Source of the DNA: a virus
Lineage: Duplodnaviria > Heunggongvirae > Uroviricota > Caudoviricetes
Reading direction: 5' to 3' (one strand)
DNA: 9,560 bases
IMG/VR virus record: IMGVR_UViG_3300029070_000029
Shown here: in pieces, positions 2,707-3,715 of the stretch
Position numbering within the stretch: position 1 is the stretch's first letter
Layout: each line of letters begins with the position of its first letter
Position numbers and translations under genes: made by a program
Notes under the pieces: generated by a model
Database searches by the model: none
What the model was told of the DNA's origin: nothing
The model's input: the letters and a program-made list of their open reading frames with translations, nothing else

Positions 2707-3411
2707 ATGGCTACATCGACAGTAATTCCAGGAGACATCACCACGTTAAAGGGAGATGTCAGTAAAGCCAAGGAAGATATTTCCTCAATTAACGGAAAAG
2801 TATCAACGCTTCAGGCTGATATGACCAGTGCAAAGCAGGATATCAGCACCAGATACACAAAAACTGAAGTTGATAATAAGCTGAAAAACAAACTGGAAGT
2901 GAACGCTCTGGAAAGCGGTCGTTATGGTGGAGATTTTTACCCGTTGACTGGCCGTGAAGCGTTTTATTTGTGGGGATTGGGCACGACTACAGCGGCGGCA
3001 AACCTTTATCTTAATCCTGACCCCGCAATTTCGTCTGTGCTGCGGTCAACATCGTCTATCCGCTATAAACATTCAGTAGAGACAATAGATTCAGAGCACG
3101 CCGATCTCATTTTCAGGATGCGCCCTGTGTGGTACAGGTCACAATGCGAAAATGACAGGCGTGACTGGGGATTCTACGGATTGATTGCCGAGGAAGTAGG
3201 AGAAATTGCCCCTCAGTTTGTACACTGGCGACCAGCTAACGAAGATGATGCACCGGAAGCTATTTCCAGCAATGGCCTTGTTGCCGAAGGTGTAATGTAC
3301 GAACGTCTGGTTGTTCCACTGATTCACCATATCCAGAAGCTGACTGAAAGAGTTGATGAACTTGAGTCAGAATTAAAGTTGTTATCCGTTTCCCGAAGCG
3401 ATATCGGATAA
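2707..3411 (+). CDS. Tail-fibre-like protein: N-terminal coiled-coil/fibre repeats plus C-terminal intramolecular chaperone (peptidase S74-like) domain
   Basis: Track ORF of 234 aa with GAGGGA at 2696-2701 upstream of ATG 2707. The N-terminal ~65 aa show ~14-residue repeats (LKGDVSKAKEDISS / INGKVSTLQADMTS / AKQDISTRYTKTEV). The C-terminal half carries motifs I associate with the endosialidase/T5 pb1 chaperone domain: S116-x4-K121 (SSIRYK), LIFRMRPVWY, GLIAEEVGEIAPQFV. Confidence 0.65.
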   Translation: MATSTVIPGDITTLKGDVSKAKEDISSINGKVSTLQADMTSAKQDISTRYTKTEVDNKLKNKLEVNALESGRYGGDFYPLTGREAFYLWGLGTTTAAANLYLNPDPAISSVLRSTSSIRYKHSVETIDSEHADLIFRMRPVWYRSQCENDRRDWGFYGLIAEEVGEIAPQFVHWRPANEDDAPEAISSNGLVAEGVMYERLVVPLIHHIQKLTERVDELESELKLLSVSRSDIG

Positions 3412-3421
3412 AGGAGGAGTA

Positions 3422-3715
3422 ATGGATATAACACCTTTCCTTCATGCGCTTTGTGCTGTGGCTGCGCAGCTACTGATTGGTCTTTTTACCGGGAACTGGG
3501 CTTACGGGGCGATAGCTGGTTGTACGTTCTTCATTGCGCGTGAACACACCCAGGCAGAATATCGCTGGATTGAAATGTTCGGGCATGGCAAGCGAATGAA
3601 TATGCCGTGGTGGGGCGGTTTTGATCCGCGCGCGTGGGATGTGGCAAGCCTGATGGATTTTGCTGTGCCGGTGGTGGCGTGTCTGCTGGTCTGGCTGTTG
3701 GTTAATCGTGGGTGA
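3422..3715 (+). CDS. Small hydrophobic, probably inner-membrane protein of unknown function (2-3 predicted TM segments)
   Basis: Track ORF of 97 aa. A near-consensus Shine-Dalgarno AAGGAGG (3411-3417) sits 4 nt before ATG 3422. Hydrophobic stretches FLHALCAVAAQLLIGLF, AYGAIAGCTFFIA and FAVPVVACLLVWLLV. GC-rich codon usage contrasts with the stf tip. Confidence 0.55.
   Translation: MDITPFLHALCAVAAQLLIGLFTGNWAYGAIAGCTFFIAREHTQAEYRWIEMFGHGKRMNMPWWGGFDPRAWDVASLMDFAVPVVACLLVWLLVNRG

What the first reader, a model, noticed from the sequence alone, without database searches (positions are those of the whole stretch)
3405..3715. Small membrane protein with near-perfect Shine-Dalgarno in the moron slot after the fibre genes
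A 97-aa, GC-rich, 2-3 TM protein is driven by AAGGAGG 4 nt before its ATG, directly after the tail-fibre-like genes and before the convergent sit operon. Small inner-membrane proteins in this position of lambdoid prophages are often lysogenic-conversion or superinfection-exclusion factors. Its compositional contrast with the neighbouring stf tip suggests independent acquisition.
Basis: inference. Interest (0 to 1): 0.5.

Follow-up and report, generated by a model that had tools for sequence, protein, structure and literature searches.

The report
Conserved phage membrane protein, function unknown
This is a real, strongly conserved gene for a small three-helix inner-membrane protein that many temperate phages carry just after their receptor-binding tail genes and that about a third of complete E. 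coli genomes contain, but nothing known resembles it and its suspected role in blocking other phages is untested.

Summary
ORF 3422..3715 encodes 97 aa. AAGGAGG (3411..3417) lies 4 nt before the ATG and overlaps the stop codon of the upstream tail-fibre gene. The gene is 54% GC, against 40-46% for the fibre-tip genes.

It is gene CPT_21_24 ('Ybl63') of phage 21 and a member of PHROG 1443 (unknown function). It evolves under purifying selection (dN/dS about 0.1). It occurs in 1906 of 5426 complete E. coli genomes.

AlphaFold2 gives a confident three-helix membrane protein. An almost invariant polar cluster (H8, R40, E41, Q44, E46, R48, R58, W72, D79) probably lies at the cytoplasmic membrane face.

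In at least 17 independent phage contexts (lambda-, P22-, epsilon15-, P2/HP1- and P1-like) the gene directly follows a receptor-binding gene, whatever the type of that gene. Non-phage chromosomal copies exist in Aeromonas and sphingomonads.

No Pfam, NCBIfam, PADLOC, PDB or fold match was found, and no paper mentions it.

No promoter of its own was found here. The gene looks co-transcribed with the late fibre genes, so 'moron expressed in the lysogen' is not shown.

Best guess: an accessory membrane protein for superinfection exclusion or envelope conversion. This is inferred only.

The parts
3411..3417 (+). Shine-Dalgarno AAGGAGG, 4 nt before the ATG. Its first base is the last base of the upstream gene's TAA stop.
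   Evidence: Read directly. The same SD is conserved in E. coli junction types B and C. Similarity to phage 21 starts at 3410.
3422..3715 (+). orf97: 97-aa inner-membrane protein, PHROG 1443. It is the homologue of phage 21 CPT_21_24 ('Ybl63') and of CFT073 C_RS07460.
3431..3490 (+). Helix 1 (residues 4-23), transmembrane. Carries invariant H8 and conserved Q16.
   Evidence: AlphaFold2 model, hydropathy, conservation.
3497..3538 (+). Hydrophobic first half of helix 2 (residues 26-39). It forms a hairpin with helix 1 through the G24-N25 turn.
3539..3640 (+). Conserved polar core (residues 40-73): REHTQAEYRWI..FG.GKR.NMPWWGGFD.R.W. It is the family signature and is predicted to lie on the cytoplasmic side.
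   Evidence: R40, E41, Q44, A45, E46, R48, R58 and W72 are at least 93% conserved in 194 members. Mean K+R is 5.4 in this loop, against 0.06 in the 22-26 turn.
3641..3709 (+). Helix 3 (residues 74-96), transmembrane. Carries conserved D79 and P83.
3735..3791 (+). Remnant of the 3' end of a tail-fibre assembly gene (tfa'). It travels with orf97 in E. coli prophages and is cut at 3791/3792 by the sit island.
   Evidence: Pfam Caudo_TAP positions 95-130/131, E = 1.6e-15 in the uncut copy L077 and E = 0.009 in the window. Translation, alignment, conserved downstream 60-mers.
2707..3411 (+). Upstream 234-aa tail-fibre C-terminal protein with a Peptidase_S74 intramolecular-chaperone domain. Probably coupled translationally to orf97 (inferred from the SD/stop overlap).
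   Evidence: Pfam PF13884 E = 4.4e-6. phrog_3299 E = 1.5e-140, matching profile positions 1147-1384/1385.
2416..2697 (+). orf93 (phrog_1361). This small protein follows the Stf tip. In phage 21 it is the gene directly before orf97.
32..2416 (+). Side tail fibre (Stf) gene, the first gene of the fibre cluster that orf97 closes.
   Evidence: (annotated 'prophage tail fiber N-terminal domain-containing protein').

Best explanation
What it is (shown): orf97 is a real gene under purifying selection. It encodes a 97-aa protein predicted to be a three-helix inner-membrane protein of an uncharacterised family (PHROG 1443; phage 21 'Ybl63'). The family is a portable accessory gene parked at the 3' end of receptor-binding-protein (RBP) gene clusters of temperate phages of Proteobacteria.

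In this window it is the last gene of the fibre operon of a phage-21-like prophage at icd. It sits where the 5' part of tfa used to be. Its mosaic history is separate from that of the fibre genes in front of it.

How it works (inferred): helices 1 and 2 form a membrane hairpin. The nearly invariant polar residues H8, R40, E41, Q44, E46, R48, R58, W72 and D79 come together at one membrane interface, probably the cytoplasmic one. There they would bind a conserved host membrane component or lipid-linked molecule.

The protein is about 60% identical from E. coli to Comamonas and Aeromonas, and it sits behind every kind of RBP. Its target is therefore generic, not the receptor of a particular fibre.

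The most likely purpose is protection of the infected or lysogenic cell at the cytoplasmic membrane. That means superinfection exclusion at the DNA-entry step, or a related change of the envelope. In this window it would be expressed at least from the late operon.
For: Real gene:
- PHROG 1443 match, E = 5.8e-59.
- 575 homologues and 443 clusters at 50% identity. All of the 150 listed are about 58-146 aa, with no fusions.
- dN/dS 0.10-0.17.
- Present in 1906 of 5426 complete E. coli genomes.

Structure and site:
- AlphaFold2 mean pLDDT 93.2, three helices.
- Invariant polar cluster.
- K+R distribution puts the N-tail and the loop inside.

Position behind RBP genes of many types:
- Phage 21 Stf.
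- P22-like tailspike, in the slot before int.
- epsilon15-like tailspike.
- P2/HP1-like fibres.
- phiHAP-1, between tfa and the sheath gene.
- P1-like fibres.
- Giant GpJ.
- Pectate-lyase and GDSL tailspikes.
- A tail-like protein followed by a DGR Avd gene.

Separate mosaic history.

Operon reading: the SD overlaps the upstream stop codon, and no promoter or terminator was found in 2300..4000.
Against: - No phenotype, expression or partner data exist for any family member (literature searches).
- There is no similarity to any known exclusion or defence protein (PADLOC, Pfam, NCBIfam, PDB).
- Tight coupling to a late structural gene is unusual for a function that should act in the lysogen.
- E. 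coli genomes carry a median of 2 and up to 7 copies. This argues against exclusion of phages that carry the same gene.
- Chromosomal copies with conserved synteny and host-like GC in Aeromonas and sphingomonads suggest a cellular function.
- The enzyme-like invariant His/Glu/Asp/Arg cluster is more conserved than is usual for exclusion proteins.
- The topology rests only on the positive-inside rule. The TMHMM note in the phage 21 record gives 2 TM segments, N-in and C-in.
Confidence: 0.35

Rival explanations
1. Surface-glycan conversion. The protein interferes with an undecaprenyl-phosphate-linked pathway at the inner membrane (O-antigen, ECA, capsule or EPS). This would alter or thin the glycan that tailspikes and fibres recognise, in the way the conversion genes behind the P22, Sf6 and epsilon15 tailspike genes do.
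For: - In phage Gally the gene sits between the tailspike gene and int, after a terminator and an AT-rich spacer. From my own knowledge, P22 carries gtrABC in this slot.
- Many upstream RBPs are glycan-directed: pectate-lyase tailspikes, a GDSL-esterase tailspike, S74-type fibres and an epsilon15-like spike.
- A conserved Arg/Lys plus His/Glu/Asp cluster at a membrane interface could bind a lipid pyrophosphate. This is inference.
Against: - No similarity to GtrA or any glycan-modifying family.
- 97 aa is too small to be a transferase.
- The gene also follows Stf-type fibres, a giant GpJ and a tail-like protein next to a DGR Avd gene, which are not obviously glycan-specific.
- Near-identical copies occur across E. 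coli of many backgrounds, so a serotype-specific target such as Wzy is unlikely.
- The predicted cytoplasmic orientation does not fit a periplasmic modification step.
Confidence: 0.2
2. Cell-type miniature membrane enzyme or ion/ligand-binding protein. Phages carry it as fitness cargo (like sitABCD next to it) or for their own metabolism, unrelated to phage exclusion.
For: - Chromosomal copies lie between pirin and a RIO1 kinase gene in several Aeromonas species and after ligA in three sphingomonad loci.
- The gene's GC and GC3 track each host, for example 0.74/0.90 in Sphingomonas.
- Almost invariant H8, E41, E46, D79 and three Arg residues look like an active or binding site.
- Partial matches occur in about 236-kb Aeromonas phages and in sewage coliphage HC6. 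I did not establish their lifestyles.
Against: - The striking linkage to RBP genes in at least 17 phage contexts is not explained.
- No fold or sequence link to any enzyme was found.
- Sphingomonad contexts are otherwise not conserved.
Confidence: 0.2
3. Late-acting lysis or egress accessory (holin-like, antiholin-like or membrane-priming protein), made together with the fibres.
For: - Co-transcription with late genes is the simplest reading here.
- In phiv142-3 the gene lies directly before two holin-type genes and the endolysin.
- In a P1-like element it lies before a 104-aa gene and lydB.
- It is a three-helix small membrane protein.
- One of 50 members gave a weak Phage_holin_8 hit, E = 0.0036.
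Against: - There is no charged C-terminal tail. The protein ends ...LLVNRG, and the mean C-tail has 0.6 K+R.
- The lysis cassette is not next to the gene in phage 21: nothing lysis-related is annotated in the 12.3-kb stretch around it. That phage 21 has its own S21 pinholin cassette elsewhere is my own knowledge.
- The deep conservation of a polar loop and the core-chromosome homologues are unlike holins.
- The holin hit is isolated and weak.
Confidence: 0.1
4. Tail-fibre maturation factor that replaced Tfa.
For: orf97 occupies the place of the tfa 5' part, with the tfa 3' remnant right behind it. It is probably coupled translationally to fibre genes.
Against: - A membrane protein is an unlikely chaperone for cytoplasmic fibre trimers.
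- The S74 fibre carries its own chaperone domain.
- orf93-type small proteins already occupy the chaperone position.
- The same conserved protein follows unrelated RBP folds.
- Cellular homologues exist without any fibre gene.
Confidence: 0.05

Closest known systems
HK97 gp15 (moron-encoded inner-membrane superinfection exclusion protein; Cumby et al. 2012, cited in PMC11364771)
   Same: A small inner-membrane protein of a lambdoid phage. It is encoded among the tail genes as accessory cargo and blocks DNA entry at the cytoplasmic membrane. This is the function I consider most likely for orf97.
   Different: No sequence similarity was detected. gp15 is a moron with its own expression in the lysogen, whereas orf97 here has no detectable promoter. 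No phenotype is known for orf97.
T4 Imm and P22 SieA (inner-membrane exclusion proteins)
   Same: Small phage membrane proteins that stop DNA transfer across the inner membrane. T4 Imm shows that lytic phages carry such genes too (my own knowledge; SieA: PMC10883804).
   Different: There is no homology. Neither is linked to RBP genes. The PHROG 1443 family has cellular homologues and a much more conserved polar motif.
Cor (phi80/N15/T1) and Llp (T5): exclusion proteins encoded next to RBP genes
   Same: The same genomic logic: a small protective gene placed beside the receptor-binding genes, often at the end of the late operon (my own knowledge).
   Different: Cor and Llp are outer-membrane lipoproteins that mask one receptor (FhuA) and match the phage's own RBP. 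orf97 is an inner-membrane protein with no lipobox, and it is independent of RBP type.
O-antigen conversion genes behind tailspike genes (P22 gtrABC, Sf6 oac, epsilon15 polymerase inhibitor)
   Same: The same slot in P22-like and epsilon15-like genomes. These are small hydrophobic proteins acting at the inner membrane.
   Different: No similarity to GtrA or other conversion proteins. No evidence exists for a glycan phenotype.
P2 Z/fun locus cargo
   Same: In phiHAP-1 the gene lies between the fibre/tfa genes and the tail sheath gene. In P2/HP1-like prophages it lies directly after the fibre gene. From my own knowledge, the slot between tfa and the sheath gene is where P2 carries Z/fun.
   Different: It is unrelated in sequence to Fun, and no phenotype is known.

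Membership tests
PHROG 1443 (phage protein family of unknown function) | Full-length match to the family profile | tested here: met
   E = 5.8e-59, 197 bits, residues 1-96 against profile 1-96/97.
Moron (self-contained extra gene in a late operon, in the sense of Hendrix and colleagues) | Own promoter upstream and terminator downstream | tested here: not met
   No sigma-70-like promoter or intrinsic terminator in 2300..4000. The 10-nt gap to the upstream gene holds only the SD. No stable hairpin in 3700..3830 (z = -0.82). In phage Gally the homologue does follow a terminator and an AT-rich spacer.
Moron | Nucleotide composition and mosaic history different from the neighbouring genes | tested here: met
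   GC 54% against 40-46%. The phage 21 identity block starts at 3410. Three kinds of upstream junction occur in E. coli.
Moron / lysogenic conversion gene | Expressed from the repressed prophage | not testable with these tools
   No transcript data found.
Known superinfection-exclusion and defence protein families (PADLOC-DB; Imm, SieA, gp15, Cor, Llp) | Sequence or profile similarity to a described family | tested here: not met
   PADLOC gave 0 families. Pfam and NCBIfam gave none above threshold. PDB gave none.
Superinfection exclusion (functional class) | Blocks infection by incoming phage at adsorption or DNA entry | not testable with these tools
   Needs plating, adsorption and DNA-entry assays.
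Holins | Small membrane protein with a charged C-terminal tail, encoded next to an endolysin | tested here: not met
   The C-terminus is ...LLVNRG, and the mean family C-tail has 0.6 K+R. No lysis gene is in the window or in the 12.3-kb phage 21 stretch around the gene. Adjacency to holin genes was seen only in phiv142-3 and a P1-like element.
GtrA-like / O-antigen conversion proteins | Match to Pfam GtrA or other glycan-modification families | tested here: not met
   No such hit for the protein or for 50 family members, even at E up to 5.
Tail fibre assembly protein (Caudo_TAP, PF02413) | Match to the Tfa profile | tested here: not met
   orf97 has no hit. The Tfa match belongs to the remnant downstream at 3735..3791.
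PhoR N-terminal membrane domain (PF11808) | Score above Pfam's gathering threshold | tested here: not met
   14.2 bits against a cut-off of 27.1. Only 4 of 50 members hit, with best E = 0.0035. This is a resemblance in hairpin topology only.

The most novel reading that the evidence does not exclude
PHROG 1443 is an unrecognised miniature membrane module shared by cell chromosomes (Aeromonas, sphingomonads) and the receptor-binding gene clusters of temperate phages of every morphotype. Its invariant His/Glu/Glu/Asp/Arg site would act on a universal inner-membrane component, for example a lipid-linked envelope precursor or a conserved DNA-entry factor. That would give a generic, receptor-independent mechanism of exclusion or envelope conversion, present in about one third of E. 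coli genomes.
Probability: 0.2. Interest if true: 0.65.

Novelty: new member of a known kind. Interest (0 to 1): 0.4.

Why it matters
The gene is one of the commonest uncharacterised prophage genes in E. coli. It is in 35% of complete genomes, often in several copies, and it is present in CFT073 next to the sit virulence operon.

Its linkage to receptor-binding genes across lambda-, P22-, epsilon15-, P2- and P1-like phages, whatever the fibre type, points to a general function in phage-envelope interplay that nobody has tested.

If it blocks entry or remodels the envelope, it would affect phage therapy host ranges and prophage competition in gut and uropathogenic E. coli. If it is a tiny membrane enzyme, it is a new fold-function pair.

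If it has no such phenotype, it is simply another conserved hypothetical at the end of the fibre operon.

Tried and rejected
Homology:
- Pfam, NCBIfam and PADLOC on the protein gave nothing.
- Pfam on 50 family members at E up to 5 gave only scattered weak hits: PhoR in 4 of 50, VirB3 in 3, one holin_8.
- PDB sequence profiles built from A1 and A3 gave nothing.

Fold:
- Foldseek against PDB and against BFVD gave nothing at E <= 0.001.
- afdb50 was not available.

Fusions: the 1.84-billion-protein profile search found only stand-alone proteins of about 58-146 aa among the 150 listed.

Literature: searches on phage 21, sitABCD, phrog_1443, Jouyvirus, c1596, Ybl63 and phiv142-3 found nothing about the gene. 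The Tai tail-assembly-interference paper concerns unrelated proteins.

Invertible segment: phage HannyBb has a DNA invertase gene just downstream. No flanking inverted repeats of the expected kind were found, so the gene is not part of an active shufflon there.

Sphingomonad synteny clustering was uninformative because of spurious long ORFs in high-GC DNA.

Rfam and tRNA scans of the window were empty.

The search for related loci with the deep alignment A3 failed for lack of a conserved stretch. The viral-contig scan with A1 returned only near-identical E. coli copies.
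Full report
**Observation.** The ORF is exactly as described. It runs from ATG 3422 to the stop codon ending at 3715 and encodes 97 aa. AAGGAGG lies at 3411..3417, 4 nt before the ATG. Its first A is the last base of the TAA stop of the upstream 234-aa gene, so the two genes are packed as one operon. The ORF is 54.1% GC (GC3 0.55). The comparison values are 40.7% (0.32) for the stf tip, 40.1% (0.39) for orf93 and 45.8% (0.43) for the S74 fibre gene. The sit genes are 48-52% GC. Hydropathy and an AlphaFold2 model (mean pLDDT 93.2, pTM 0.75) give three helices, at residues 4-23, 26-53 and 74-96.

**What the window is.** It is the right-hand end of the late operon and the b region of a phage-21-like lambdoid prophage inserted at icd. 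The elements, in order:
- Stf (32..2416).
- A 93-aa protein of phrog_1361 (2416..2697).
- A 234-aa tail-fibre C-terminal protein with a Peptidase_S74 chaperone domain (2707..3411).
- orf97.
- The convergent sitDCBA operon (3807..7256).
- A duplicated icd 3' end (8184..8336).

Phage 21 itself (OL657228) has Stf, a 92-aa protein, then the 97-aa 'putative membrane protein' CPT_21_24, then sitDCBA. E. coli CFT073 has the same arrangement, with C_RS07460 next to sitD. One source names the protein 'Ybl63'.

**Mosaic structure.** Window 3410..7393 is 99.2% identical to phage 21, and the similarity begins exactly at the SD/stop overlap. Among 80 E. coli prophage copies there are three upstream junctions:
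- After a 346-aa S74 fibre gene plus an intrinsic terminator (GGGGCCGAGCGCCCC-GTTTTATT) 20 nt before the ATG.
- After the orf93 homologue.
- After the 234-aa S74 gene, as in this window.

What stays constant is orf97 plus the roughly 75 nt behind it. That stretch is the 3' remnant of a tail-fibre assembly gene. It matches Pfam Caudo_TAP positions 95-130/131 with E = 1.6e-15 in an uncut copy and E = 0.009 in the window. In the window, phage 21 and CFT073, the remnant is cut at 3791/3792, where the sit island begins. So orf97 sits where the 5' part of tfa used to be. The fibre genes in front of it have been exchanged independently of it. The GC contrast, however, is a general property of AT-rich receptor-binding tips. 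In homologous loci from other hosts the upstream 1.5 kb is also poorer in GC than the gene, and the gene itself tracks its host's GC, from 0.45 in E. coli podoviruses to 0.74 in Sphingomonas.

**The protein family.**
- orf97 matches PHROG 1443 (unknown function) over its full length, E = 5.8e-59.
- There are 575 homologues in the 90% database. All 120 listed are named 'hypothetical' or have no name, and none has a Pfam domain.
- There are 443 clusters at 50% identity. All of the 150 listed are stand-alone proteins of about 58-146 aa.
- E. coli alleles give dN/dS of about 0.10. The comparison with phage Gally (80% aa identity) gives 0.15. No allele carries a stop codon.
- The gene is in 1906 of 5426 complete E. 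coli genomes, with a median of 2 and up to 7 copies per genome. 57 of the 3934 places are on plasmids.

**Conservation and topology.** Conservation is unusual for a small phage membrane protein. At about 60% identity the core AREHTQAEYRWI..FG.GKR.NMPWWGGFD.R.W is invariant. Across 194 members, H8, R40, E41 and W72 are 100% conserved. Q44, A45, E46, R48, R58 and P83 are at least 93% conserved, and D79 is 91% conserved. In a hairpin of helices 1 and 2, H8 lies beside R40/E41, and D79 opens helix 3. The polar residues should therefore meet at one membrane interface; this is inference from the secondary structure. Mean K+R is 5.4 in the 40-73 loop and 0.45 in the N-tail, against 0.06 in the 22-26 turn and 0.6 in the C-tail. 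By the positive-inside rule the conserved site faces the cytoplasm (N-in, C-out). The phage 21 record's TMHMM note (2 TM segments, N-in, C-in) differs, so the topology is not settled.

**No link to anything known.**
- Pfam gave only PhoR N-terminal at 14.2 bits, against a cut-off of 27.1. NCBIfam and PADLOC gave nothing.
- PDB sequence profiles gave nothing.
- Weak-hit pooling over 50 members gave nothing consistent.
- No paper in the library mentions the gene.

**Genomic context elsewhere.** The gene directly follows a receptor-binding gene in at least 17 independent settings:
- Phage 21 and E. coli lambdoids.
- P22-like Gally, between the tailspike gene and int, after a terminator and an AT-rich spacer.
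- epsilon15-like phiv142-3, between the tailspike and the holin/endolysin genes.
- P2/HP1-like prophages of Leclercia and Aeromonas salmonicida, abutting or overlapping the fibre gene's end.
- phiHAP-1, between tfa and the sheath gene.
- A P1-like element of Leclercia, between the fibre genes and lydB.
- Comamonas, after a 2520-aa GpJ, and after Stf-like proteins with a relative of orf93.
- Comamonas nitrativorans and Pigmentiphaga, after a tail-like protein and before a DGR Avd gene.
- Salmonella, between two pectate-lyase tailspikes.
- Citrobacter, after GpJ and a pectate-lyase spike.
- A metagenomic contig, after a GDSL-esterase tailspike.
- Pantoea and Leclercia, after fibre genes.

The upstream RBP can be any type, while the membrane protein stays highly conserved. 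It therefore cannot be matched to one receptor.

There are also non-phage copies. In several Aeromonas species the gene lies between pirin and a RIO1 kinase gene, with no phage genes nearby. In three sphingomonad loci it follows ligA. Partial matches occur in about 236-kb Aeromonas phages and in sewage coliphage HC6, at the end of its tail module. I did not establish the lifestyles of these phages.

**Expression logic.** In the window there is no sigma-70-like promoter and no intrinsic terminator between 2300 and 4000. The SD overlaps the fibre gene's stop codon. No stable hairpin separates orf97 from sitD. The simplest reading is transcription with the late fibre genes. In one E. coli junction type a terminator sits 20 nt before the ATG. 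That again implies read-through by antiterminated late transcription rather than a private promoter. Only in Gally does the layout look like a classical moron. Expression in the lysogen is therefore not shown.

**Mechanism.**
- Shown: a conserved gene under purifying selection, confidently predicted to encode a three-helix membrane protein; a portable unit at the distal end of RBP clusters; independence from RBP type; cellular homologues.
- Inferred: an accessory, non-structural protein whose conserved polar site binds a generic inner-membrane component.
- Most likely (0.35): exclusion at the cytoplasmic membrane or DNA-entry step. This is by analogy with HK97 gp15, T4 Imm and P22 SieA, and with the habit of phages to place protective cargo beside RBP genes (Cor, Llp, P2 Z/fun).
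- Rivals: modulation of an undecaprenyl-linked glycan pathway (0.2); a cell-type miniature enzyme or ion-binding protein carried as fitness cargo (0.2); a lysis or egress accessory (0.1); a fibre maturation factor that replaced Tfa (0.05).
- Points against the best explanation: multiple copies per genome, tight coupling to late genes, the enzyme-like conservation, and the chromosomal homologues.

**Comparison and novelty.** The ORF is already in the databases as a hypothetical protein of phage 21 and of thousands of E. coli genomes. It is not a member of any characterised family. By position and size it belongs to the known kind 'small accessory membrane protein in the RBP-distal cargo slot'. 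The additions here are the family's breadth, its RBP-type independence, the invariant polar site, the cellular homologues and the tfa-replacement history. It is a good, cheap candidate for a wet-lab test, but nothing here shows a surprising mechanism.

Noticed in passing
window 3735..3791 (junction at 3791/3792): A remnant of the C-terminal end of a tail-fibre assembly (Tfa, Caudo_TAP) gene lies directly behind orf97. In the window, phage 21 and CFT073 it is cut after ...KKYRVLL, which marks the left junction of the sitABCD island. Other E. coli prophages keep the full Tfa C-terminus (...APDIEWPTVPIIE) and carry other cargo there, such as a GGDEF/MASE4 protein.
   Followed up: yes
window 2416..2697; also L001 5710..5988, L029 4432..4995, L159 3994..4278 and 5601..5888: The 93-aa protein (phrog_1361, distant relative phrog_18574) follows Stf-type fibre tips from E. 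coli phage 21 to Comamonas and Pantoea. Unannotated proteins of 94-95 aa sit in the same position after each fibre gene of a P1-like element; their relatedness to orf93 was not tested. It looks like the fibre's dedicated chaperone replacing Tfa, and it has no Pfam family.
   Followed up: partly
window 2707..3411: A stand-alone 234-aa gene corresponds only to the last 240 or so positions of long tail-fibre profiles (phrog_3299 positions 1147-1384 of 1385) and includes the Peptidase_S74 chaperone domain. Other E. coli prophages carry a 346-aa variant at the same place. It is absent from phage 21. How such a short fibre piece attaches to the virion is unclear.
   Followed up: partly
window 538..1009: The N-terminal half of Stf contains a 189-nt tandem repeat (2.3 copies, 83% matches) with 42- and 21-nt sub-repeats. 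It encodes the Ala/Ser/Thr/Lys-rich '...KTSETNAK...' shaft and shows a very high AT skew (0.44-0.65).
   Followed up: partly
L163 (phage HannyBb) 5022..5612, minus strand: In some lambdoid phages a DNA invertase gene lies just after orf97 and the tfa remnant, as beside invertible fibre segments of Mu, P1 and e14. No matching inverted repeats were found around the fibre genes, so it looks like a relic.
   Followed up: partly
window 8184..8336 and 8340..9560: There is a duplicate of the icd 3' end, as at the phage 21 and e14 attachment site. It is followed by very AT-rich DNA (24-35% GC) with only short ORFs.
   Followed up: no
window 7393..7892: This stretch is not shared with phage 21, whose gene 31 (252 aa) has no match in the window. 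It holds a 79-aa ORF (7450..7689) with no family match.
   Followed up: partly
L078, L086, L090 and 19 other IMG/VR loci: 22 of the 80 IMG/VR viral contigs end exactly at the orf97 stop codon. This suggests that prophage-boundary prediction habitually cuts there and leaves downstream cargo such as sit out of the 'virus'.
   Followed up: no
L036 3785..5691 (Comamonas nitrativorans), L037 (Pigmentiphaga humi): A family member sits between a tail-like protein (phrog_2889) and the Avd gene of a diversity-generating retroelement. That places it inside a DGR cassette.
   Followed up: no
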